Shown piece by piece: positions 5,584 to 47,162 of a DNA stretch of 57,402 nt; within the stretch, counting starts at the first letter, position 1; the number at the start of each line of letters is the position of its first letter. The DNA is taken from IMG/VR virus record IMGVR_UViG_3300033150_001005, positions 1 to 57,402 of that record; one strand, 5' to 3'. A program made the translations under genes and the position numbers. This DNA comes from a virus (taxonomy: Duplodnaviria; Caudoviricetes). Below the pieces are notes generated by a model. The model saw nothing but the letters and a program-made list of their open reading frames with translations, made no database searches and had not been told where the DNA came from.

Positions 5584-8500
5584 CGTCCAAACGCTACCCC
5601 GACGTGCCGAAGCTCCGTCGCAATTTTGTTGGCAACGTCAATGTTGCCGCCGTTGACATTGATTGTGATGTTTTGCAACCGGTTGTTGATCGATTGCACC
5701 GGGGTCAAAATGTCATTCAGCTTACCCTTGATATCCCAGAGCGTGGACTTCATGTTGTCGGTGTTCGGCACGAGGTAGCCGTTCGGCCCCAGGCTGTCGC
5801 GGATCTGCCAGAGCGTCGTCTTGATGTTGTCCGTGTTTCCGACCACGTAGCCGACCTGCTCCAACGTCTTCAGGCTGGCGGTCATGATTCCGCCATCGGC
5901 CCTGTCGCCGAGATACTGAGTGCCGCGACGCGTGTTTTCCTCGATTGCGTTGAGCGTGTTTTCGCGCCGTGCGCCTTGGAGCAGGCCAACAACACCGGTT
6001 GCAGCGCTGATACCGCCAAAGATGGTACCCAGCACTCCGGACGCGCCGCCGCCCACCGCACCACCTCCGCCGGTTGCGGCACCACCTGCACCCGCAGCAC
6101 CAGCCGCTGCGCCGCCCCCGCCGCCAAACACGCGGCCAAGGGCTTTGCCGATCGAGTTGATTGCGCTCAGGAGGCCGCCGTCGCCAGTGAGCTTGTCAAT
6201 CAGCCCTTGGAAGATACTTTCCAGGCCGGCTCTCGCCAGCGCTTCCCCCATGTCGAGCAGCATCCCAGAGAAAGCATCCTTGACTCGGTTGAAGATGGAC
6301 TGCCCCTTCTTATCCTTGTCGATCTGGTCTAGTTTGTCGCTGACGTCATCAACGAAAGCCTCCCACTTGCCGCGCTCTTCATCCAGAGCGGCTTGCAAGT
6401 CTGCCGTTTGCTGATCGAGCTTTTCTTTCGCGGCAGTTTTGAGGTTCTCTAATTCAGTTGCAGCATCCTGCTGATATTGCTGCCAGTCCGCCGTGGAATC
6501 TTGCAGCTTCTTCGCGGTCTCTGCCTTGAAGGACTCCAGCGCTGCTTCGCGCTGCGCCAGGCTATCCTTCAGGTCTGTGATTTGCTGGTCGAGTTGCTGG
6601 GCGGCCGAGGCGGTGATCTCTTCTTGCTTGGTCTTGTTCTCTTCAACGTACTCCTCATAGTCGCGCTTCCGCCGCTCCATCGACTTTGCGATGTCGGCCT
6701 CAATGTCATGGAGGCGGCGGTTGTGGTCCCGGACAAACTCAGCGAGGTCTTCCGTTTTCCGCTGGATGTACCGCTCGTGATCCTCGGTCCGCCGCTCGAT
6801 GCTCAGCCGGAGATCACGGACCTCCTGCGAATTGGCGTCCTTGCCCTTTTGGAGCAGCCGCCGGATCTGCCGCTCTTTATCCTCGACGTAGCGCTTATAG
6901 CGCCGCTCCTCATCATCCAAGGAACGCTGGATGTCTCGCTTCTTGTCGCGGATGGCCTCCTTGTTGTCACGAACCGCCCGCTTCAGCCGCGTCTTGTCAT
7001 CCTGCATCGCATCGCGGTAGCGCTCCGTCGCATCCCGCAACTGCTCGCGCAGATCGCCCAATCGCTTGGCAAGCTCCTCCTTGTTTTTCTCCGTGATCTC
7101 TTCGATTTTAGTGAAGACTTCGGCTTTATACTCCTCGAAGTCTGCGGCCTTCTGAATGAGGCTATCCCGGAGGTTCCGTTGGTCCTCCTCGTACTGTTGC
7201 CGACGCGATTCGAGCGATTCAGCATACCTGCGCTCAGCCTCCGCAATGGAATCCTGATAATCCTGCTGCGCCTGTTGGAGCCGGTCGGCGATATCTTGCT
7301 GATACTTCTCCCACTCACTCCGCCGCTGTTCGAGCGATTGACGAAGCTCCGCCTCTTGCTGCCTCAGACTCTCAAGTTGCCGAGAATCGAAGATTGAGAA
7401 AAAGCGGTCAGTGATGTTCTTGCCAAGGTCGGTCAGGATGGTTGATACCTGACGGCCGAAGCTGCCCCATTCCTCCCTTGACTTCTGCGCAGCCTGCCCA
7501 AGCGCCTCCCCAGCCTTCCGGGCGGCCTCCGGCAGTTCCACATCAAAGCCTTCCAAGAGCGGCGGCACGCTGTCCTGAGAAAGCGCGTCAATCTCTTTCC
7601 GAACTCTCTCCGCCTCTTCCGCGATCGCCCCGCTTTCCCACGCGCGATTCCAATCTTCCGTTGCTTTGCGCGCCGCCTCCAAGGCTTGCTTCGCCGCCTG
7701 CATATCGCGTTCCCACTCGGCGTATGCCGGGTCGAAGTCGCGGATAGCGTAGCCATGCTCTTCGAGTGCTTCGTTCTGCTTTTCGAGTTTGGCGGTTAAC
7801 GCGGCTGTCGTCTGCGCCAGTTCCTTCTTGGCTTTCTCTTGCGCTAACGCAGCATCCCTAGCTGCCCATGCTTTTGCCGCCTCGGCCTCCATCGCGGCGT
7901 CTGCTTTACGCGCTACCTCATCAGCACGCCTGCGGTGCTCATCGATCACCGTGTCCATGTCAAGAAAGGACTTCTTGACCGCATAGGCCGCCGCCACGAC
8001 CCCAACCCCGAGAAGCGCAATCAGACCCACCGGACCGGTCAGGACTCCAATCAGTCCGGTTACCGCCAGCTTGGTTCCAGCCAAGACAGCAGGCAGCGTG
8101 GCCATGGCAACGCGCATACCAGCAAACATGTGGATTGCCTTGCCGCCCGCCAGGGTCAGCGGAGCCAGCGCGGCAGTAAAAGCGCCAATTCCAACAATCG
8201 CCTTTTGGGTCGTGGGGGACAGCTCAGCAAACCAATTGGCGAGATCTCCGAGGCGATCCAGTAGCGGACGGAGCGCATCCAGCGCATCACTGAGTGCTGG
8301 CGCGAGCGCATCACCGAATTTCTGCGCCAGAACCTCAGCCTTGGCCGCCACTTGCTTCATCGTGAAGCCTGCCTTATTGATGCCGTTCGTCTGCTCCTCA
8401 AATGCTGCCTGAGTTGCACCCGCGGCATCATTCATTGCGGCGAGTTTGCTGTTGAAGGTATCGGCTTGATTGCCCGTGAGAGCGAAAACCGCGTTAAGAG

Positions 8501-16910: not shown

Positions 16911-17567
16911 TTATACCCCAATCGGCTCATGCCCGGGAAACCCGGCTTGCTTGCGGTCCATGAATAGATTGCGGTGCGCTCGAAGCGTCCAGTTCTTGTC
17001 TTTCAGGTGCTCCGGCTCCGGCTCATGCTCTCGCACCCAGTGCCGGTGATAATGGGTCAGATCCGGGCGTTGCCACAGTACACCGAGCGCCTTGGCGACC
17101 TCGTATAGCTCCTCATCCACATACATGTGCCACCAGCCAGGCCAGAACGGTCCTTCGCCGCCATACATCCGCTGGCAGAATTCCAGTCCAAGCCACGGGG
17201 AGCCGCAGACGTGCTCCGAGTAGACGTGCTGCCCGCTGCCCCATCGGTCCCCCGTGGGCTGCATCACGCCAAACGTTCCGCTGAAATGCTTGGTACACTC
17301 CTCGGCAATCTCCAGCGGTGCCCTCTGGTCCGGTTCGATATCATCGCCACCCGTGACAATCCACGTCACATCGGCATCTGCGTAGCGGACCTCCCGGCAT
17401 AGTGCGTTAACAGCCTTCGCATAGCCCGGATATTCGCCCACGAGAACCAGCTCCGCCGGGATTTCGTCTGTATCCCGCCAGACGGCGATCCGATAGCCTT
17501 TCTCCCTCCATAGTGGGATTGTGCCGCCATTAGGCCGGGCGGATGGGACAGCAAGCCAGACGCTCAT
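16911..17567 (-). CDS. Putative glycosyltransferase (GT-A fold)
   Basis: GYAKAVN, GGDD, MYVDEEL, HRHW. Confidence 0.65.
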   Translation of the reverse strand: MSVWLAVPSARPNGGTIPLWREKGYRIAVWRDTDEIPAELVLVGEYPGYAKAVNALCREVRYADADVTWIVTGGDDIEPDQRAPLEIAEECTKHFSGTFGVMQPTGDRWGSGQHVYSEHVCGSPWLGLEFCQRMYGGEGPFWPGWWHMYVDEELYEVAKALGVLWQRPDLTHYHRHWVREHEPEPEHLKDKNWTLRAHRNLFMDRKQAGFPGHEPIGV

Positions 17568-18175
17568 ACTATACGACGCCAACACGGCGCAGTCACGCGC
17601 TTGCTGCTCGTGTTTCCGGCGTGAATTCTCGCCACAATGTGATTGCCGCCGGGCACCACAATAGCCTTCGCTCCACGCTGGAATTCGCCGTCCTCGCTCT
17701 CGTTTAAGTCCGGGAATGGGCGGCGGCGCCAATAGTCACGCCAATACATCAGCGTCACGCCAGGCGCATAGTGTGGATCATTGCTGATGTACAACCAGCG
17801 CTGTCCGCGCTCATCCTCGAAGACCAGCGGGCAGTAACCAGTCATCTGCGTATCAGTCCTGGCCAACCGCGCCACCTGATCCGCAATCCGGTCTGGCGCG
17901 TACATATCGTCGGAGTCCCAATGGCAGATGATGTCGCCGTGAGCGATGGAGCACGCCAGATTCCGCTTCGCGCCAATGCTCATTCGCGGCGCCCGCTCGT
18001 AGATGATGCCTGCCCCCCGCGGCGGCGTGATGAATGACGGCTCCAGCCGGTCATCTACAATCACGATCTCCCGCACTGGGTAGGACTGTCGCCGCCACAT
18101 CTCGACCGCTTCGGCGGCCATGCGGCAGCGTCCCCTTGTCGGCATGATCGCCGAAACGAGCAATTCAGAACGCAT
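17564..18175 (-). CDS. Glycosyltransferase family 2
   Basis: VSAIMPTRGR, Q.YP..EIVIVDD, IGAKRN, HWDSDD, ED. Confidence 0.92.
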   Translation of the reverse strand: MRSELLVSAIMPTRGRCRMAAEAVEMWRRQSYPVREIVIVDDRLEPSFITPPRGAGIIYERAPRMSIGAKRNLACSIAHGDIICHWDSDDMYAPDRIADQVARLARTDTQMTGYCPLVFEDERGQRWLYISNDPHYAPGVTLMYWRDYWRRRPFPDLNESEDGEFQRGAKAIVVPGGNHIVARIHAGNTSSKRVTAPCWRRIV

Positions 18176-19548: not shown

Positions 19549-19573
19549 GGTTGATTCTCCGAAAGAAGGGGAA

Positions 19574-19677
19574 GGAGAGGCGCTCGCTGTGCTTGGTGCT
19601 CTCGACTACTTTGGCTCGCTCCAGCGGTTTGGTGCTCTCTTGATGTATGGCTCGCCTTACGGTTTGAGCGCCTCTCC
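19574..19677 (-). ncRNA. TIGR-like mini-array (2 x 36-nt units) inside a 12-bp inverted repeat
   Basis: + strand repeats at 19594, 19612, 19630 and 19648 (tggtgctctc/tggctcgctc), 18-nt period; flanks ggagaggcgctc 19574-19585 and gagcgcctctcc 19666-19677. Confidence 0.8.
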
Positions 19678-19691
19678 CTTTATTTTAGCGC

Positions 19692-20903
19692 CTAAAAGCT
19701 GGACGCGTAAATTACAGCATCGCTCCGATAGGTGGTGAGCGCCAGCCGCTCTTCGGCTCGGATCGCCACGAGGTTCTTAGTGAAATAATCCGAGTGCTCG
19801 GTGCTGATTACCACCTGAGCCTGCTGACGGTCCCAGAGCGCAACGTGGGTAGCAAAAGCGCCCACAAGCGCAGTGCCAGCGGTCATTGCGGTAGTCGTCG
19901 CTACTGGCAGTCCCCACAGGGTAGGCTCAGCAACACCCTGCGGCCCGCCAAGCAGATACCGGCCAGTGCCCGCGGCGCGCTCCTCCGTCTTCAAGGTCTG
20001 AATCAATCGCCAATCGGTAGGGTGCATCACGACACCGGTAGCCGTCAGGTTCGCAGCCTCGATCTGTTCGATCATCCGGGCAACCTTATCGATCTTAGTA
20101 TCGTTGGTTTGCCCATATGTGGAGCTATCGTAGGCCGTCGCCTCATTGGTCAAGCCGCTGAGGTTTTGCCCCGTGGCATCGCCGGACAGGATCTGTTTGT
20201 CTTCCTCGTCCATCAGGCCGTCGATGAGCCGCTGGTTAATATAGGCTTGCAAACCCTGGAAGTCATCCAGGATTTGCCGGGATGCCGGAATCCAGTGTGC
20301 GATGGTGCGAACGTTCTCGTAATCGATCGTAAAAGTGAGCGCGGATTCCTCCTTGGCCGAAGCCTCGACCTGCGGCGAAGCGTTGCTCGTGAAGACGTTC
20401 TCCTTCACGAATTCCACCGCATTATTGCTCGTGGTGAATCGCGGAATCAGATCCCGCATACGGTTGCGCCGCACGCCCGGCTTGACGATTCCCGGCACGC
20501 GTGCAGGTACCAGAATGCCCGGCGTCGAGCTACCGACCGCCGAACTCGTGATCGTGGTCTTGAAATCCCCCGGAAAGAACGTCTTGACCGGCACCTCCAG
20601 CGAAATACCGCGGATGTGACCATCACTCCGAACGTGCCCAGCGAACTCCTTGAAGGCATCGTTCTCGATGATCACCTCACCAATGGACCTCGTTTCAGCG
20701 ACAGTGTTCGGCGCGATGTTGCGCTGTTGTGCCGCCTCAAGTTCATCCAGGCGGCGCAAAGCCCTTTCCGCCTTTTCCAATGCCGGCTTGGCCGGTGCAC
20801 CCAGCGCCTTCAGCTCCTCGTAGTGCTGCTTCCACATCTCGCGCTGGGCTTCAATTGCTTGCATGACGTCATTCTTGACGTCTTCCAACGTATGTTCAGG
20901 CAT
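19692..20903 (-). CDS. Major capsid protein, HK97 fold
   Basis: VRTIAHWIPASRQILDD, FTKNLVAIRAEERLAL. Confidence 0.97.
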   Translation of the reverse strand: MPEHTLEDVKNDVMQAIEAQREMWKQHYEELKALGAPAKPALEKAERALRRLDELEAAQQRNIAPNTVAETRSIGEVIIENDAFKEFAGHVRSDGHIRGISLEVPVKTFFPGDFKTTITSSAVGSSTPGILVPARVPGIVKPGVRRNRMRDLIPRFTTSNNAVEFVKENVFTSNASPQVEASAKEESALTFTIDYENVRTIAHWIPASRQILDDFQGLQAYINQRLIDGLMDEEDKQILSGDATGQNLSGLTNEATAYDSSTYGQTNDTKIDKVARMIEQIEAANLTATGVVMHPTDWRLIQTLKTEERAAGTGRYLLGGPQGVAEPTLWGLPVATTTAMTAGTALVGAFATHVALWDRQQAQVVISTEHSDYFTKNLVAIRAEERLALTTYRSDAVIYASSF

Positions 20904-25189: not shown

Positions 25190-25654
25190 TCAGAACTTTG
25201 CCCAGGGATCGTCCTCCGGGCCAGCATCCGGAGTCTTCAAAGTCGCCCGTGAGGCAGGCGTGAACCCGAAGTCTCGATAGCCGCGCCACAGATGCCCCAG
25301 AATCTCCTTCATCTCCCGGACCGCCGGGTTGATATGGACCACGCCACTCCGCTTATTGGCGATGAGGAATCCCGCCTTCCGCACCAGGTCCGCCATCTCC
25401 TGAAAACGGGCCTCCAAGTAAGCGATCTTCTCCAGTGGTCGCCCGTCCGCCTCCGTCAGCACTCGCATGTGCTCGGTGAGCGTCAGGAGGTCGCCGTAGT
25501 GCTTCTTCGCCAGTTCATCCTCGGCGAGCAGCCCGGTCTCGTCCGGTCGTCGCTCAGCCGGTTTCGGCTCCCGCTTGTTGATTGGCCGGTGCTGCGGATT
25601 GCCTGCACGAATCCTGATCGGCGTCGGTGTCGGTGCTGGTCCTCGAAGTCCCAT
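25190..25654 (-). CDS. terS: Terminase small subunit (P27-like)
   Basis: RGPAPTPT..GNP..R; NPA; FGFTPASR. Confidence 0.93.
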   Translation of the reverse strand: MGLRGPAPTPTPIRIRAGNPQHRPINKREPKPAERRPDETGLLAEDELAKKHYGDLLTLTEHMRVLTEADGRPLEKIAYLEARFQEMADLVRKAGFLIANKRSGVVHINPAVREMKEILGHLWRGYRDFGFTPASRATLKTPDAGPEDDPWAKF

Positions 25655-27003
25655 CAGCTTGCCTTCTTCAATGCCCGCAGATCACACTTGCGCTTGGTCA
25701 TTTGCACGATCTTCCACGGCTTTGCCTTCGGGGCACCACAGTAACGATCCGGTCCGCCAAATTGTCGCAGCCCTTCAATGACTGCGCGCTTGTCGGTCAC
25801 AGTCACTCGCCCGTCGTGAACCCTGTAGGCCTTCCGGCGCCTCCACTCGCCGATGATGTCCACAGCCTCAAGCCCCGCGCGAAGTGAAACCATTGACATT
25901 ACCCGCATTTCCGGAGAGTAAACGCGGGTCCGCTCAGCCATCTTGACCGGCCAACTCCGCTCATCACCGCGTCCAAAAAACTCCACCCACTTGCCTCGAT
26001 AATCTCGTTCCCAGTGGACGACGGCATCCTCCATCACGGTATGAGGAGTGGGCATAAACACCGACGGTGACGGTTTGAGCAGGAAATCGCTAGCCCCCGG
26101 CAGTTCCGAGATTTTCATGAGCGTCTCGCGGAACTCTGCCCAGTCGTCCTCAGTCTCGCCCGGCAGGTCCAGGATGAGATACATGAATAATCCCTTCCGC
26201 TTCAGAGCAATCGCCTTACGAGCGGCCTCCACCACTTGCTCATTCGTGTACGGTTTGCGCACCGACTGGCGGAGCCTTTCAGACAGACCTTCAACGCCAA
26301 CCCGCGGAACGCTATCGCTGCGCTTTTCGATTCGATCAAGCCTTACATCCGAGTCAACCCGGATCTTGCCCATTCGGTGGCATATTGCCGTTAGCTCATC
26401 GTCCGCCTTGTGCATCGTCGGTTCCGGAGCAAATAGCGAAACCCGCTTGCCCTTGGTTGACCAGAGCAGCTTCCGCGCCTCGTCGAGCGGCAGTTCACGA
26501 TACGGCTTCAACTGCGCCACAGCACAGAACGTGCAAGGCATCCGGCAGCCCCTGGCTACCTCGATACGAGCAATGCCATTGGTCTCATGGAGAAACGGCG
26601 GCAGTTGCTCGGCATTTCCCCAGCGGACAGATCGCTGGTCCTCAGACGTCAACACGTACGGACTCTCGCGGCCCTCGACGGCATCTTCAATCGCAACCTC
26701 CCCATCGCCCACCACGACCGCGTCAGCGAAAGGCAAGAATACAACTGGGTTGAACGCGTTGAAGCCGCCAACAACAATCCGCGGGCGCGGCTGACGATCC
26801 TTGCGGATACCGGCCTTCTGCAAAAAATCAGCTAGCGCATACAGGTGTTCCCACCAGAAGCAGGAGAAAACCAGCGTGTCAACGTATCGGGCCGTCCTCG
26901 GGGTAACCCGGAAAACCTCATGCTTGCCTCTGAGCACGTGCAGGCAAAGCGCCAACCCATATGCCAGATCATCGCGCCCGAAAGTCAGATACCCGATTCT
27001 CAC
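25654..27003 (-). CDS. Radical SAM protein with a B12-binding-like N-terminal domain
   Basis: EVARGCRMPCTFC (CxxxCxxC); VVGG..A, VVGDGE, LPGET. Confidence 0.9.
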   Translation of the reverse strand: MRIGYLTFGRDDLAYGLALCLHVLRGKHEVFRVTPRTARYVDTLVFSCFWWEHLYALADFLQKAGIRKDRQPRPRIVVGGFNAFNPVVFLPFADAVVVGDGEVAIEDAVEGRESPYVLTSEDQRSVRWGNAEQLPPFLHETNGIARIEVARGCRMPCTFCAVAQLKPYRELPLDEARKLLWSTKGKRVSLFAPEPTMHKADDELTAICHRMGKIRVDSDVRLDRIEKRSDSVPRVGVEGLSERLRQSVRKPYTNEQVVEAARKAIALKRKGLFMYLILDLPGETEDDWAEFRETLMKISELPGASDFLLKPSPSVFMPTPHTVMEDAVVHWERDYRGKWVEFFGRGDERSWPVKMAERTRVYSPEMRVMSMVSLRAGLEAVDIIGEWRRRKAYRVHDGRVTVTDKRAVIEGLRQFGGPDRYCGAPKAKPWKIVQMTKRKCDLRALKKAS

Positions 27004-27590
27004 TCCTGCACCTTGTATTTGCACTCATAGGTCTTGACCATCTGCTCAAGCACTCGAGTGATCTCCTGCCGCTTTGCAAGCCATATGCCAGGATGAAAGG
27101 TCATGCCCACCTTTACGCCAGGCTCGACCTCCGGGACATCGACAGGGAGATCCGCGTCCGCGTCTCCGATGCCCTGTTCACCGCGAATCAGATCCTCCAC
27201 CGCCGATGAGTCAACCTGTCCGATATCCGCAACTAGACCGGAGAGAATCTCTTCGTCCGGAACGGCCATGGCGCCCAGCGGATCGAATGTCGCAATAATC
27301 AGCTTTTCCTCGTCTTCGTCCAGATCAACATAGGTAACCGGAACCTTCTCCCCACGCGAAATCGCCATGGCGACGCGCGCGTGACCGTCGATGACGTAGC
27401 CGGTGCGTTTATTGACGATCACCCGTTGCACCCAACCAACCTGATCCAAGACGCCCGCCAGCGCATCTTGCTGGGCCTTCGGGTGAATGCGCCAGTTATG
27501 CGGGTTCGCCAACAATTGATCGGCGTCAACCTCGTCCTGACCGACTATCCGGTTTTGCCACTGCCGGGGTTGTGCTTTCTTACGGGCCAT
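27000..27590 (-). CDS. ParB-like nuclease-domain protein
   Basis: NPHNWRIHP..Q, VIDGHAR. Confidence 0.85.
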   Translation of the reverse strand: MARKKAQPRQWQNRIVGQDEVDADQLLANPHNWRIHPKAQQDALAGVLDQVGWVQRVIVNKRTGYVIDGHARVAMAISRGEKVPVTYVDLDEDEEKLIIATFDPLGAMAVPDEEILSGLVADIGQVDSSAVEDLIRGEQGIGDADADLPVDVPEVEPGVKVGMTFHPGIWLAKRQEITRVLEQMVKTYECKYKVQE

Positions 27591-27599
27591 CAAGCGAGC

Positions 27600-28882: not shown

Positions 28883-28956
28883 TGGCTGGAGCGCGGGGGC
28901 TCGAACCCCGATCCCCGGAATCAAAGCCCGGTATCCTCCCATTGGACGACGCTCCA
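28883..28956 (-). tRNA. tRNA-Gln(TTG)
   Basis: 74-nt cloverleaf: acceptor tggagcg/cgctcca, anticodon arm ccggg-ctTTGat-tccgg, GGTTCGAG T-loop, CCA end. Confidence 0.9.
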
Positions 28957-40209: not shown

Positions 40210-40264
40210 TGGCAGGCGCGGCAGGACTCGAACCTGCGACCCTCGGCTTAGAAGGCCGATGCTC
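40210..40264 (-). mobile_element. attP core: 3' two-thirds of tRNA-Arg(TCT)
   Basis: - strand gagcatcggc-ctTCTaa-gccga-gggtc-gcaggTTCGAGTcctgc-cgcgcctgCCA; 5' acceptor and most of the D arm missing; 22 nt from the integrase stop. Confidence 0.9.
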
Positions 40265-40286
40265 GCAAATTCCGTGGTAACGCATG

Positions 40287-41486
40287 TCACTGAATGCTTT
40301 GGACTTGCCCGCCAGCATCCTCATCGCATGTATCAAATGCACCACAAAACCATCCCAATTCGCCCAGAATCGCCTCCGGAATCGCCCGGCGCCGCTCCAC
40401 GTCTTGGACGCTGTAGTACAACGTCATGCTCGCGTCACGATGCCCCATCGTCCGCTGCCGATCTTCCAACGGAATCCCTGGAATCTGGCCGGCTAGCGCC
40501 GAGTGTGCACGCCGAAAGCCGTACCACGTCACCGGGAATCCGAGCGTGTCGGCTAGCTTGCGGAATTGCCGGTTGGCGATGTTGTGCGAGTCAACCGGGG
40601 TTCCCCGGCGGCTCTGGAACAGCGGCGCCTCCGGGTCCTGGCGCTTGGAACGTTCAACCAGCGCCGCCAGCATCCCGGCCAGCTCCGGCGTCAAGCCCTC
40701 GATCCGTTCCCTGGCCGATGTCTTCAAGCTGCCATACTCGCCGCGGTAGTAATTCTCGCGGACGGCTACTGAGTAGGGCGCTAGCATGATTCCGTCCACC
40801 TGCACAGGTTGGGGCGTGAAGTTGCAATTCCGCAGACGGAGTCCACACAATTCCGCCGGCCCCATCGAAGTAGCTACCGATAAAAGTGCCATCTCGCGTG
40901 CTGGCGGCGTGAGCCGTAAGAGCACCAGGCGCAATTGTTCCACCGTGTACGTAGGGCGCCGCTCGTGCCGCACCGCGGGCAAGCTCACCAACCGTGCCGG
41001 ATTCTCCGCCTGGTACAATCGCAGTCTCCGCGCGTGCTCAAAGATGGCGGACAGGCAGTGCTTCGCGTGCAACACCGTCTGCACACTGTAGCCTCGCTCG
41101 AATAGCTGCCGCACAATGCCCTCAATGGTGCCCGCGTCCACATCTGACAGCCTGCACCCGCCCACCAGCGGTTCCAGCATCCGCCACCGGGTGGCATAGT
41201 GCGTTCGCCCGGCCTTTTTCAGCCGCCACACCACCTGTGGCTCAAATTGCGACGCCCAAAACTCGCTGAGTGTCGTGCTGCTGGAGGGGCGGCAGTTGCG
41301 GAGATTGATAGCCGCCATGAACTCTCGGCGCTTCCGCTCGGCCTCCCGGACGCCGACATCTTTCTTGGAACCGATGTACTCGTACCGCCACCTCCAATTC
41401 CCTTCCGCGTCGTACTCCCGGTATTGCACCGTCCAGGTGCTGCGAGACTTCACCCATCTACCCTTCTGACTTCTCGGTCGTGCCAT
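40287..41486 (-). CDS. int: Tyrosine integrase
   Basis: ELCGL, LKT, Y.FRR, MGH...MT..Y; adjacent attP. Confidence 0.92.
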   Translation of the reverse strand: MARPRSQKGRWVKSRSTWTVQYREYDAEGNWRWRYEYIGSKKDVGVREAERKRREFMAAINLRNCRPSSSTTLSEFWASQFEPQVVWRLKKAGRTHYATRWRMLEPLVGGCRLSDVDAGTIEGIVRQLFERGYSVQTVLHAKHCLSAIFEHARRLRLYQAENPARLVSLPAVRHERRPTYTVEQLRLVLLRLTPPAREMALLSVATSMGPAELCGLRLRNCNFTPQPVQVDGIMLAPYSVAVRENYYRGEYGSLKTSARERIEGLTPELAGMLAALVERSKRQDPEAPLFQSRRGTPVDSHNIANRQFRKLADTLGFPVTWYGFRRAHSALAGQIPGIPLEDRQRTMGHRDASMTLYYSVQDVERRRAIPEAILGELGWFCGAFDTCDEDAGGQVQSIQ

Positions 41487-41533
41487 CGTTGCCTCCATGG
41501 GCATTGTGGCACAAACGGGATTGGGCATCATTC

Positions 41534-41776
41534 TCATCTCAGCGCTTCAGATTCGAGCCGCGGCTCCGCCATCTGTTCGTTGTGCACCTCACGTAAGCCG
41601 AGCTGGCTAGATTCACCAGCCACAGCCATCAGACCCTCAACGCTGAAGCCGTGATGGCGGCACAGACGCCAGGCAGCTTTAGGCTGATTATATGGCGGGA
41701 GGGCTAACGCGGAAATAGCCATTGCGAACCCCTGATAGAAGCCCCGCTCCCAATCGCTCAGCTTTTTTCGTGCCAT
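41534..41776 (-). CDS. Hypothetical protein
   Basis: ORF in operon. Confidence 0.5.
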   Translation of the reverse strand: MARKKLSDWERGFYQGFAMAISALALPPYNQPKAAWRLCRHHGFSVEGLMAVAGESSQLGLREVHNEQMAEPRLESEALR

Positions 41777-46712: not shown

Positions 46713-46931
46713 CTATTCACGTCGTAATCCTTGATTTTGGTCCGCCCATCTTTCGCAGACCCCCCTCGCCAACTCATCAACCATGTCCCGCAGCTTATCC
46801 AGAGCCGCCATTGCCACGACAACACGGTCGGCTATCTTTCCGAGGTCATTATTAAGCGCCTTAAGTTGGTTCAGGATCGCTGCGGATTGGTGCAACTCCT
46901 TCACTGTTTGCTCGTCGTTAAATGCGGTCAT
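46713..46931 (-). CDS. Small coiled-coil protein
   Basis: ATG 46931 with a GGAGG SD supplied by the last array unit. Confidence 0.6.
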   Translation of the reverse strand: MTAFNDEQTVKELHQSAAILNQLKALNNDLGKIADRVVVAMAALDKLRDMVDELARGVCERWADQNQGLRRE

Positions 46932-47120
46932 TTGTTCGCTCCTCCCGGTTGGCGCTCTCAACCTATATGGCTCGCTCTTACCTCCTGGCACTCTCTGTTT
47001 CACTGGCTCGCTCGCGTGGCTTGGTGTTCTCTCGTCGTTTGGCTCGCTCCCCCTATTTGGTGCTCTCGGCAAGGTTGGCTCGCTCAGGTTTTTTGGTGCT
47101 CTCGCCGCCGCTGGCTTGAT
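46932..47120 (-). ncRNA. TIGR-like dual-repeat array (5 x 36-nt units)
   Basis: 11 repeats at exact 18-nt spacing (46932 to 47112); - strand alternates GAGCGAGCCA and GAGA(G/A)YRCCA with ten different 8-nt inserts. Confidence 0.85.
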
Positions 47121-47128
47121 GCTTTCGC

Positions 47129-47162
47129 AAAAAGCGGGGAGCAGCGCCGCCACCGCTCCCCG
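47129..47162 (-). terminator. GC hairpin plus U-tract just upstream of the array
   Basis: cggggagcggtg-gcgg-cgctgctccccg-cttttt on the - strand. Confidence 0.6.

What the first reader, a model, noticed from the sequence alone, without database searches (positions are those of the whole stretch)
19574..19677. Second TIGR-like mini-array, enclosed in a 12-bp stem, directly after the major capsid gene
Seen: the same two repeats recur 27 kb away, in non-coding DNA, with four new inserts (tacatcaa, aaccgctg, aagtagtc, agcacagc). They are flanked by the perfect inverted repeat ggagaggcgctc/gagcgcctctcc, whose arm includes the last partial repeat. This shows the motif works as nucleic acid rather than protein. 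Inference: the position suggests very high late expression, and the stem may allow excision of the guides or mark a mobile mini-array unit.
Basis: partly seen in the sequence, partly recalled or inferred. Interest (0 to 1): 0.9.

Follow-up and report, generated by a model that had tools for sequence, protein, structure and literature searches.

The report
Orphan guide-RNA array aimed at rival capsids
Right behind its capsid gene this phage carries a tiny array of two guide RNAs of the recently discovered TIGR type, although it has no gene for the protein that uses such guides, and the guides fit the capsid genes of its closest sibling phages but not its own, which points to guide-RNA warfare between related viruses.

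Summary
On the minus strand, 19677..19574 holds a 12-bp stem arm, two complete 36-nt TIGR units (edge repeat GAGCGAGCCA, loop repeat GAGAGCACCA, 8-nt spacers), and a 3'-truncated edge that forms the other arm. It lies between the major head gene and the next gene.

These two repeats define a large array family:
- 109 IMG/VR stretches on 89 contigs carry it.
- 74 of the 89 contigs also encode a nuclease-less Tas protein (NCBIfam TIGR_Tas_endo, 214 bits).

The window is a complete genome with 114-bp terminal repeats. Six searches found no tas in it, so both of its arrays are orphans.

The main new result concerns targets. The window and two sibling contigs give six post-capsid guides. Each has its best match (0-2 mismatches) in the major capsid gene of another phage, in the geometry I derived from the published 3' overhangs. 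Each differs from its own phage's allele by at least 3 mismatches. Shuffled guides reach 1 mismatch or fewer in 2 of 2400 trials.

Repeats and stem are invariant, while fourfold sites diverged 9-57%.

Best reading: borrowed-effector guides against sibling phages, kept next to the immune capsid allele. Still open: where the Tas protein comes from, whether the array is expressed, what the stem does, and what array 1 targets.

The parts
19666..19677 (-). 5' arm of the closing stem (GGAGAGGCGCTC)
   Evidence: Perfect 12-nt inverted repeat. It is the only helix kept in the centroid fold and in the 3-sequence consensus fold. Eleven of the 12 nt are identical in L047 and L177.
19648..19657 (-). First edge repeat, degenerate at its 5' end (AGGCGAGCCA). 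It supplies the AGCCA 5' end of tigRNA 1.
   Evidence: It is identical in both siblings. Family arrays start with a 5'-truncated edge AGCCA.
19640..19647 (-). Spacer A of tigRNA 1 (TACATCAA)
   Evidence: Together with spacer B it matches the capsid site YINQRL of sibling L177 with 1 mismatch.
19630..19639 (-). Loop repeat GAGAGCACCA (unit 1)
   Evidence: 0 mismatches.
19622..19629 (-). Spacer B of tigRNA 1 (AACCGCTG)
19612..19621 (-). Full edge repeat GAGCGAGCCA between the two units (expected processing site)
   Evidence: 0 mismatches. Processing within the edge repeat is taken from Faure 2025 and Xu 2026.
19604..19611 (-). Spacer A of tigRNA 2 (AAGTAGTC)
19594..19603 (-). Loop repeat GAGAGCACCA (unit 2)
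   Evidence: 0 mismatches.
19586..19593 (-). Spacer B of tigRNA 2 (AGCACAGC)
   Evidence: With spacer A it matches the EHSDYF capsid site of L177 at 15 of 16 positions.
19574..19585 (-). 3' arm of the stem (GAGCGCCTCTCC). Its first five bases are the 3'-truncated terminal edge repeat.
   Evidence: Family arrays end in GAGCG.
19549..19573 (-). U/C-rich tract (TTCCCCTTCTTTC), then the Shine-Dalgarno-like GGAGA of the next gene
   Evidence: Read. A stem followed by a U-rich tract occupies the place where array-less relatives have a compact terminator hairpin.
19692..20903 (-). Major head protein gene. It carries the window's own, mismatched alleles of the three guide target sites.
   Evidence: phrog_10 E 1.4e-63.
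20227..20243 (+). Own allele of target site 1 (codes YINQRL). It is a perfect 8+1+8 match to tigRNA 1 of sibling L177 and has 3 mismatches to the window's own tigRNA 1.
20116..20132 (-). Own allele of target site 3 (codes YDSSTY). It has 2 mismatches to tigRNA 1 of sibling L047.
   Evidence: gene nt 772-788, converted by me to window coordinates.
19783..19798 (-). Own allele of target site 2 (codes EHSDYF). It has 5 mismatches to the window's own tigRNA 2, including a Ser codon change from AGC to TCG.
46937..47116 (-). Array 1: five tigRNA units with the same repeats. It starts with the truncated edge AGCCA and ends in GAGCG just before the ATG at 46931. Its targets were not found.
47135..47162 (-). 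Terminator-like hairpin (12 pairs, then CTTTTT) just upstream of array 1

Best explanation
The feature is a genuine two-unit dual-repeat TIGR array. Each unit would give a 36-nt tigRNA: AGCCA, spacer A (8 nt), GAGAGCACCA, spacer B (8 nt), GAGCG. The phage itself has no tas gene.

SHOWN:
- The anatomy of the array.
- Membership of its repeats in a large Tas-linked array family.
- No tas found in a complete genome.
- Strong purifying selection on repeats and stem.
- Near-perfect matches of all six sibling-lineage guides to major capsid genes of other phages, in the tandem-spacer geometry, while each phage's own allele is mismatched.

INFERRED:
1. The array is transcribed with, or just after, the capsid message.
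2. The 12-bp stem plus U-rich tract takes the place of the usual post-capsid terminator hairpin. It closes and stabilises the precursor, pairing the terminal truncated edge.
3. A nuclease-less TasA from a co-resident prophage, a co-infecting phage or the host binds the precursor and cuts it in the edge repeats.
4. The loaded TasA dimer binds the capsid gene of a co-infecting or superinfecting sibling and blocks its transcription or replication. The phage's own capsid gene escapes through synonymous differences.
5. The array sits directly behind the capsid gene because guide and immune target allele must be inherited together in a recombining phage population.
For: Architecture:
- 10-nt repeats, 8-nt spacers and a 36-nt period.
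- In 604 distinct family units every spacer column carries 0.12 bits or less.
- Arrays begin with AGCCA and end with GAGCG, as Faure 2025 describes for edge repeats.
- Both repeats end in CCA, which is box C.

Tas link:
- A roughly 270-aa neighbour occurs in 70 of 89 contigs within the fetched loci, plus 4 of the other 19 when whole records were searched.
- It matches NCBIfam NF052498 TIGR_Tas_endo (E 2.1e-63, 214 bits, cut-off 100).
- Its profile matches PDB 9mty_A (E 3e-24) and TasH 21kl_A (E 8e-15).
- None of 10 longer members has an HNH or RuvC Pfam domain.

Orphan status:
- The genome has an exact 114-bp terminal repeat and is rated 100% complete.
- No hit with Pfam Nop, Transposase_20 or NF052498.
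- No hit with a family HMM of 53 sequences (best E 2.6) or with alignment A2.
- hhalign on 113 ORFs of 120 aa or more gave a best probability of 1.5%.

Selection:
- Between the window and L047, fourfold sites differ by 0.57 (capsid gene) and 0.25 (next gene).
- The repeats, the terminal GAGCG and 11 nt of each stem arm show no difference, while 12 of 32 spacer positions differ.
- There are no indels inside the array, although the flanks have them.

Targets:
- Best mismatches of the six guides on 31 capsid genes are 1, 2, 0, 1, 1, 2.
- Shuffled guides reach 1 or fewer in 2 of 2400 trials, 2 or fewer in 44 of 2400, and never 0.
- The same guides in the wrong arrangement give 3-4 mismatches.
- In 6 of 6 guides the best allele is foreign and the phage's own allele has 3-6 mismatches.
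- L177 tigRNA 1 fits the window's capsid perfectly, and the window's tigRNA 1 and 2 fit L177's capsid with 1 mismatch each.
- The arrangement that matches is the one I derived from the published 8-nt 3' overhangs.
- Both Ser codon-family switches between the window and L177 capsids (2 of 21 Ser columns) lie in target sites.

Effector activity:
- TasA acts as an RNA-guided repressor (Xu 2026, sections read).
Against: - No source of Tas is identified. NF052498 passed its cut-off in only 1 of 301 sampled genomes of the class of G021, and that one was the centre genome itself. The window's host is unknown.
- The two siblings are fragments (21% and 24% complete), so whether they carry tas is unknown.
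- The three tigRNA-1 matches need one unpaired base between the half-sites, while the tigRNA-2 matches are contiguous. Whether TasA tolerates that gap is unknown.
- The spacers diverge at about the neutral rate, 8 of 32 and 12 of 32 against fourfold 0.09-0.57. That alone would also fit unconstrained spacers.
- Only three sibling arrays exist, and their guides share ancestry, so the six guides are not independent.
- The family's 1004 guides show no overall excess of matches on the 1.4 Mb held.
- There is no evidence of transcription or processing.
- The 156-nt region does not fold better than shuffles (z -0.48).
- The promoter-like site upstream is not conserved in spacing in the siblings (my reading).
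Confidence: 0.6

Rival explanations
1. RNA decoy (an 'anti-TIGR'). The orphan arrays only mimic the repeats. They soak up the TasA of a resident or competing element, as RNA anti-CRISPRs do for Cas proteins, and spacer content is irrelevant.
For: There is no tas in the genome. The repeats are invariant, while spacer length is fixed and spacer sequence drifts at about the neutral rate. Racr precedent: PMC10651486 (listing and abstract seen).
Against: All six guides fit capsid genes at 0-2 mismatches in the correct geometry, against 2 of 2400 shuffles at 1 or fewer. A pure decoy has no reason to do so. Differences between sibling guides follow synonymous capsid alleles. For example, all 5 positions where the L047 tigRNA-2 guide differs from the window's correspond to existing capsid alleles (my reading).
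Confidence: 0.1
2. Guide-only homing or marker-exclusion element. With a nuclease Tas, or by TasA-induced stalling and bending, the guides damage the sibling's capsid gene. Repair then copies the neighbouring immune allele together with the array into the sibling, as with phage homing endonucleases.
For: All three target sites lie within 1.1 kb of the array in the adjacent gene. The phage's own allele is protected by synonymous changes. Ser codon switches and a mosaic pattern in the capsid genes hint at recombination.
Against: The Tas proteins that use these repeats lack nuclease domains in all 10 long members tested, and the typical length is about 270 aa. The unit was not found in any other context. 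All three siblings already carry the array.
Confidence: 0.12
3. Self-regulation. The guides bind the phage's own capsid gene imperfectly and tune late gene expression. The better fit to sibling alleles is a by-product of recombination between siblings.
For: The targets lie in the gene just upstream of the array. TasA is a repressor. The phage's own sites are still recognisably related to the guides, at 10-13 of 16 positions.
Against: In 6 of 6 guides the phage's own allele is worse than a foreign one and has 3-6 mismatches. In TasR and TasH single mismatches already change activity. A simple swap of arrays does not explain L177 tigRNA 2, whose best match is in L133/L134.
Confidence: 0.08
4. 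Decaying relic of a lost TIGR-Tas locus, or merely a structured terminator that happens to contain repeat-like sequence.
For: There is no tas. The array is very short. It occupies the position of the usual post-capsid terminator.
Against: About 45 repeat positions show no change against L047 although fourfold sites diverged 25-57%. The unit lengths are exact and the truncated edges are canonical. A second array of 5 units lies in the same genome. The guides match capsid genes.
Confidence: 0.05

Closest known systems
Dual-repeat TIGR arrays of TIGR-Tas systems (Faure et al. 2025, PMC12045711; sections 4, 5, 6, 8, 10, 24 and 49 and passages read)
   Same: Two alternating short repeats with short spacers and a 36-nt unit. 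Both repeats end in CCA. The array starts with a 5'-truncated edge and ends with a 3'-truncated edge followed by a stem and a U-rich tract. Spacer A and spacer B match opposite strands of adjacent half-sites, in the arrangement that gives 3' overhangs. The 8-nt spacers are as in the Salicola phage TasH system.
   Different: No tas gene anywhere in a complete genome. Only 2 units (5 in the second array), against the usual 5-15. The repeats begin with GAG rather than UG. The terminal stem encloses the whole array. Natural targets can be named.
Nuclease-less TasA as RNA-guided transcriptional repressor (Xu et al. 2026, bioRxiv 10.64898/2026.09.09.750476; abstract and sections 5, 11 and 13 read)
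   Same: The Tas proteins that go with these repeats are TasA-like (no HNH or RuvC domain). Repression is therefore the expected activity at the capsid gene targets.
   Different: That work starts from tas loci and searches for arrays around them. Arrays in genomes without tas are not covered in the parts I read. It states that natural targets mostly cannot be determined.
Virus-borne mini-CRISPR arrays (Medvedeva et al. 2019, PMC6858448; listing and start of abstract seen. The details below are recalled, not read here.)
   Same: Very short arrays in viruses without effector genes. Their spacers are directed at close relatives of the virus, implying a borrowed effector and superinfection exclusion.
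   Different: A different guide system (CRISPR repeats, host Cas). Here the source of the effector is unknown, and the array sits next to the gene it targets.
RNA anti-CRISPRs (Racr; PMC10651486) and phage crRNA-like regulatory RNAs (bioRxiv 10.1101/2024.10.29.618823); abstracts seen in the listing
   Same: Phage-encoded repeat mimics, without effector genes, that engage an effector made by someone else.
   Different: Racrs work as decoys without meaningful spacers. The guides here have specific targets.
Post-capsid intrinsic terminator or attenuator hairpins of HK97-like head modules
   Same: Same position. A G+C-rich stem is followed by a U-rich tract. Of 21 distinct array-less relatives, 11 have a compact hairpin there.
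   Different: The loop is 80 nt and holds two tigRNA units. The simple terminator scan does not call it.

Membership tests
Dual-repeat TIGR array | Two distinct alternating repeats of 8-12 nt separated by short (about 9 nt, range 8-12) variable spacers; 36-nt unit | tested here: met
   The repeats are 10 nt, the spacers 8 nt and the period 36 nt. Across 604 family units the spacer columns carry 0.12 bits or less and the repeat columns 0.9-2.0 bits.
Dual-repeat TIGR array | Edge and loop repeats share box D at the start and box C (CCA) at the end, and these covary between the two repeats | tested here: met
   Both repeats end in CCA and both start with GAG. The start differs from the UG of TasR arrays. 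Faure 2025 says the motifs can diverge but covary.
Dual-repeat TIGR array | [quoted passage not shown] | tested here: met
   Array 2 runs from ..GCGAGCCA to GAGCG, then stem arm and U-rich tract. Array 1 runs from AGCCA to GAGCG. The same holds in tas-linked arrays. The terminator here is atypical (80-nt loop).
Dual-repeat TIGR array | A tas gene (Nop-domain protein) in the locus | tested here: not met
   No match in the window to PF01798, PF02371, NF052498, a family HMM, alignment A2 or hhalign. The feature is met for the repeat family at large: 74 of 89 IMG/VR contigs and 12 of 21 genome loci.
Dual-repeat TIGR array | Tandem-spacer targeting: spacer A and spacer B pair with opposite strands of adjacent half-sites | tested here: met
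   Near-perfect natural matches occur only in the arrangement [spacer B][reverse complement of spacer A]. I derived that arrangement from the 3' overhangs. Three of the matches need one unpaired central base.
Dual-repeat TIGR array | Transcribed and processed into 36-nt tigRNAs bound by Tas | not testable with these tools
   No sequencing run was listed. This needs small-RNA sequencing and a pull-down.
TIGR-associated protein (Tas), for the neighbour protein of the repeat family | Match to the curated Tas model and to solved Tas structures | tested here: met
   NF052498 gives 214 and 204 bits against a cut-off of 100. PDB TasH 21kl_A E 8e-15 and 9mty_A E 3e-24. That 9mty is TaTasR is my inference, from its 331-aa length and the 331 residues given.
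Intrinsic (rho-independent) terminator | G+C-rich stem, loop of a few nucleotides, and a U run directly after the stem | tested here: not met
   There is a 12-bp stem, but the loop is 80 nt and the tail is mixed U/C. It is not called by the scans.
Mobile (MITE-like) inverted-repeat unit | The same unit in several unrelated contexts, with target-site duplication | tested here: not met
   The 5' arm plus first edge occurs only in the three siblings in IMG/VR. The metagenome hits are chance matches. No direct repeat flanks the arms (read).

The most novel reading that the evidence does not exclude
A guide-only selfish cassette. A TIGR mini-array has shed its effector gene and is welded to the immune allele of its own target, the major capsid gene. 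Sibling phages fight each other reciprocally with it, using a borrowed Tas protein. This would be a poison-antidote or marker-exclusion system made of RNA guides. It would also give the first natural protospacers for TIGR systems, showing that their biological role includes conflict between viruses.
Probability: 0.45. Interest if true: 0.92.

Novelty: new variant of a known kind. Interest (0 to 1): 0.85.

Why it matters
[quoted passage not shown] Here a small, tractable case gives named targets:
- three sites in the major capsid gene of sibling phages;
- reciprocal perfect or near-perfect matches between siblings;
- self-avoidance through synonymous changes.

This turns the question of role into an experiment with one TasA, one 100-nt array and a few capsid alleles.

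It also shows that TIGR arrays can exist without a tas gene in the same genome, so surveys that start from tas miss them. It suggests effector sharing across a family whose repeats stay invariant while the Tas proteins have diverged to about 30% identity. It also offers an explanation for array position: linkage of the guide to the immune allele.

My searches for 'TIGR array' with 'orphan', and for 'anti-TIGR', 'tas-less', 'solitary tigRNA' and 'standalone TIGR', found no relevant paper.

Tried and rejected
Tools that gave nothing:
- The look-up of sequencing runs: none was listed and no RNA holder was listed.
- blastn of the capsid region against cultured phages: no match.
- Rfam at gathering scores found only two tRNAs in the window.

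Searches for more relatives:
- The metagenome scan for the 5' arm plus first edge gave 16 hits. All were chance matches in G+C-rich coding DNA without arrays.
- Searching with the exonuclease gene beside array 1 and with the gene downstream of array 2 gave no new close relatives. Array 1 could therefore not be compared.

Target searches that came up empty:
- Self-targets in the window: 7 hits at 3 mismatches against 8.4 +/- 3.4 for shuffles. With gaps allowed, nothing stood out.
- Exact or 1-mismatch targets of all family guides on the held loci showed no excess over control arrangements. At gap 0 the correct arrangement (Y) gave 40 against 23-34. At gap 1 it gave 29 against 23-38.
- Database-wide scans for 16-nt targets were not run. 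By my rough estimate of collection size, chance alone would give tens of hits.
- Array-1 guides on capsid genes gave 3-4 mismatches, the random level.

Leads dropped:
- A first lead that tigRNA 1 matched the capsid site TSTAV (a peptide match with 6 wobble mismatches) was dropped in favour of the YINQRL site.
- The Ser codon switch at EHSDYF as proof of escape was weakened. Such switches also occur elsewhere in these capsids, and the site's divergence is not an outlier.
- The sigma-70-like site at 19711-19682 was not adopted, because the siblings have 3 extra bases in the spacer.
- The post-capsid position is not a general habit. Dispersed mini-arrays of tas-bearing phages lie beside integrase, terminase, exonuclease and helicase genes. 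None of the 26 more distant capsid relatives shows an array motif after the capsid gene in the downstream sequence held, which was missing or short for a few.

Checks for a hidden Tas:
- The 456-aa unknown protein looks like a viral radical-SAM protein. The 252-aa unknown stays unexplained at score 0.80.
- No structure prediction was run.

Full report
THE OBSERVATION

Genes in this part of the window run on the minus strand. Read on that strand, 19677..19574 is:

GGAGAGGCGCTC - aaaccgta - AGGCGAGCCA - tacatcaa - GAGAGCACCA - aaccgctg - GAGCGAGCCA - aagtagtc - GAGAGCACCA - agcacagc - GAGCGCCTCTCC

A U/C-rich tract and the ribosome-binding site of the next gene follow.
- No minus-strand ORF of 40 aa or more spans the region.
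- The upstream ORF 19692-20903 is a major head protein (phrog_10, E 1.4e-63). It follows terminase, portal and head protease genes in the usual order.
- The other array lies at 46937-47116 (-). It has five units, sits just after a terminator-like hairpin, and ends at the start codon of a 72-aa ORF.

WHAT KIND OF REPEAT THIS IS

A scan of IMG/VR for GAGAGCACCA-N8-GAGCGAGCCA gave 109 stretches on 89 contigs.
- They hold 363 distinct arrays with 2987 repeat units.
- The spacing is exactly 18 nt in 2457 of 2624 intervals.
- Stop codons occur in all frames. Of 137 arrays with 8 or more units, only 25, 19 and 9 are open in the three frames. The arrays therefore work as nucleic acid.
- In 604 distinct 36-nt units the spacer columns carry 0.12 bits or less.

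Arrays start with a 5'-truncated AGCCA, often overlapping the stop codon of the upstream gene. They end with a 3'-truncated GAGCG. This makes GAGCGAGCCA the edge repeat and GAGAGCACCA the loop repeat in the terms of Faure et al. 2025. That paper describes two alternating 8-12-nt repeats, about 9-nt spacers, truncated edges, a terminator at the end, and repeats ending in CCA. The finding is therefore exactly two tigRNA units.

THE ASSOCIATED PROTEIN

Next to the arrays, 70 of the 89 contigs encode a protein of about 270 aa. Whole-record searches added 4 of the remaining 19. The other 15 contigs are fragments, 6-70% complete.

The protein is a Tas protein:
- NCBIfam NF052498 'TIGR-Tas system RNA-guided endonuclease', E 2.1e-63, 214 bits, cut-off 100.
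- Its profile matches PDB 9mty_A (E 3e-24) and TasH 21kl_A (E 8e-15), and more weakly IS621.
- None of 10 longer members has an HNH or RuvC Pfam domain, so the family is TasA-like.
- In GTDB genomes the array pattern occurs in 21 stretches, mostly on contigs of soil Acidobacteriota MAGs. Twelve of them have tas in the fetched locus.

THE WINDOW HAS NO TAS

The record has an exact 114-bp terminal direct repeat and is rated 100% complete. Six searches found nothing:
- Pfam Nop
- Pfam Transposase_20
- NF052498
- an HMM of 53 family members on the six-frame translation (best E 2.6)
- alignment A2
- hhalign on 113 ORFs of 120 aa or more (best probability 1.5%)

Both arrays are therefore orphans. 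The phage looks temperate: it has an integrase-like ORF next to a tRNA-Arg gene. Its terminase is closest to those of phages of Proteobacteria, at 54% identity or less. The host is unknown.

RELATIVES

Two IMG/VR contigs are siblings: L047 (capsid 78% identical) and L177, which includes L131 (capsid 95.5% identical). They carry the same post-capsid array.
- Repeats, the terminal GAGCG and 11 nt of each stem arm are identical to the window's, apart from one change at the least conserved loop position and one change in the outer stem of L177.
- Spacers differ at 12 of 32 positions (L047) and 8 of 32 (L177), without any indel.
- Fourfold-degenerate sites of the flanking genes differ by 0.25-0.57 (L047) and 0.09-0.29 (L177).
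- Repeats and stem are thus under strong constraint. Spacer length is fixed, while spacer sequence changes at about the neutral rate.
- None of the 26 more distant capsid relatives shows an array motif after the capsid gene in the downstream sequence held, which was missing or short for a few. Eleven of 21 distinct downstream regions have an ordinary compact terminator hairpin at that place. None of the three array bearers has one.

TARGETS

Faure et al. report 8-nt 3' overhangs. From this I derive that the target strand reads 5'-[spacer B][reverse complement of spacer A]-3'. In this arrangement:
- The window's tigRNA 2 matches the capsid gene of L177 at 15 of 16 positions, at the site coding EHSDYF. 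The window's own allele has 5 mismatches.
- L047's tigRNA 2 matches the same site in L133/L134 at 15 of 16 (own allele 4 mismatches).
- L177's tigRNA 2 matches L133/L134 at 14 of 16 (own allele 6 mismatches).
- With one unpaired central base, L177's tigRNA 1 matches the window's capsid gene perfectly (20227-20243, coding YINQRL).
- The window's tigRNA 1 matches L177's allele of that site with 1 mismatch (own allele 3 mismatches).
- L047's tigRNA 1 matches a third site (YDSSTY) in the window with 2 mismatches (own allele 3 mismatches).

Statistics:
- On 31 capsid genes the six guides reach best mismatches of 1, 2, 0, 1, 1 and 2.
- Shuffled guides, with gaps of 0-2 allowed, reach 1 or fewer in 2 of 2400 trials and 2 or fewer in 44 of 2400.
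- The wrong arrangement gives 3-4 mismatches, and so do the array-1 guides.

Further observations:
- The positions where sibling guides differ largely follow synonymous capsid alleles (my reading).
- Both Ser codon-family switches between the window and L177 capsids lie in target sites, although such switches also occur elsewhere in comparisons with L047.

Limits:
- There are only three lineages, and their guides share ancestry.
- The one-base gap is unexplained.
- The family's 1004 guides show no general excess of matches on the 1.4 Mb I held.
- Array-1 targets were not found.

MECHANISM

Shown:
- A canonical TIGR array without tas.
- Strong selection on its repeats and stem.
- Guides that fit the capsid genes of siblings but not the phage's own.

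Inferred:
- The tigRNAs are loaded into a TasA made by another element in the same cell. The repeats are invariant across Tas proteins that share only about 30-99% identity, which makes sharing plausible.
- The complex blocks the rival's capsid gene, as TasA represses transcription in the assays of Xu et al. 2026.
- The place directly behind the capsid gene keeps guide and immune allele linked.
- The stem with its U-rich tail stands where relatives have a terminator. It is the only helix in the centroid and consensus folds. It pairs the terminal truncated edge and may end and protect the precursor.
- No covariation beyond two ambiguous outer pairs supports the stem. The region as a whole does not fold better than shuffles (z -0.48).

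The weakest link is the source of TasA. NF052498 passes its cut-off in 1 of 301 sampled genomes of one bacterial class, and that one is the centre genome itself.

COMPARISON AND NOVELTY

The array is a member of the TIGR dual-repeat kind by every sequence feature I could test, except for the neighbouring tas gene. Functionally it resembles virus-borne mini-CRISPR arrays (PMC6858448) more than RNA anti-CRISPR decoys (PMC10651486).

The TIGR papers I read do not describe arrays in genomes without tas, and they state that natural targets are unknown. Literature searches for orphan, standalone or anti-TIGR elements found nothing relevant. Supplements were closed.

VERDICT

The TIGR reading is supported. 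The expression and mobility ideas are untested or unsupported. The new content is orphan status plus targeting of sibling capsid genes. I rate it a new variant of a known kind, interest 0.85.

Noticed in passing
L027:105-2231 (-): One TasA of the family is 709 aa long because an intein-like insert (Hint_2, LAGLIDADG_3 and Intein_splicing hits) splits the Tas homology into two blocks.
   Followed up: partly
window 46929-46950 (-): The last spacer B of array 1 plus the truncated edge (ACCGGGAG GAGCG AACAA ATG) forms a strong Shine-Dalgarno-like GGGAGGAG 8-9 nt before the start of a 72-aa ORF. The end of the array therefore doubles as a ribosome-binding site.
   Followed up: no
window 27000-27593 (-): A ParB-like protein (phrog_620 E 9e-15; phrog_498 E 2e-17). 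Faure 2025 notes that TasA loci are sometimes in an operon with ParB homologues. Here it lies far from both arrays.
   Followed up: no
window 25654-27024 (-): A 456-aa ORF without Pfam or PHROG hits resembles viral radical-SAM protein clusters in the ESM Atlas (score 0.98).
   Followed up: no
window 40210-41537 (-): An integrase-like ORF (Phage_integrase E 4.8e-6, just under the cut-off) abuts a tRNA-Arg(TCT) gene. A tRNA-Gln gene lies at 28883-28956. This suggests a temperate phage with a tRNA attachment site.
   Followed up: no
window 17968-17983 (+); L047 2219; L177 2209: A guide from a tas-bearing array on a Gemmatimonadetes MAG contig (L115) matches, with 1 mismatch, a site conserved in all three siblings, inside ORF 17564-18175. 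A single such hit is within chance expectation.
   Followed up: no
L013 3481, L055 1596, L074 5217, L039 1026, L076 956: One guide of the tas-bearing phage behind L008 matches (1 mismatch, one-base gap) a site conserved in five loci of another tas-bearing phage group. This may be targeting between phages, or chance.
   Followed up: no
L013 ~6585-6600, L055, L076, L039: In tas-linked loci the array starts inside or at the tas stop codon (TAAGCCA...). Close relatives (TasA 96-99% identical) differ by gain, loss and reshuffling of whole units, unlike the static two-unit post-capsid array.
   Followed up: partly
L006, L060, L016/L090, L108, L093, L024: Tas-bearing and tas-less contigs of the family carry further small arrays far from tas. 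They lie beside integrase, large terminase, exonuclease/SbcC-like and DnaB-like genes.
   Followed up: partly
capsid genes of window, L177 and L047: Serine codon-family switches (AGY/TCN) are unusually frequent between these closely related capsid genes: 2 of 21 and 4 of 15 Ser columns. This hints at mosaic recombination among alleles.
   Followed up: partly
G024:C399 (L126, L180): One 61-kb Pyrinomonadaceae MAG contig holds a tas gene with arrays and also an HK97-type capsid gene 43% identical to the window's. It is a tas-bearing relative of the head module.
   Followed up: no
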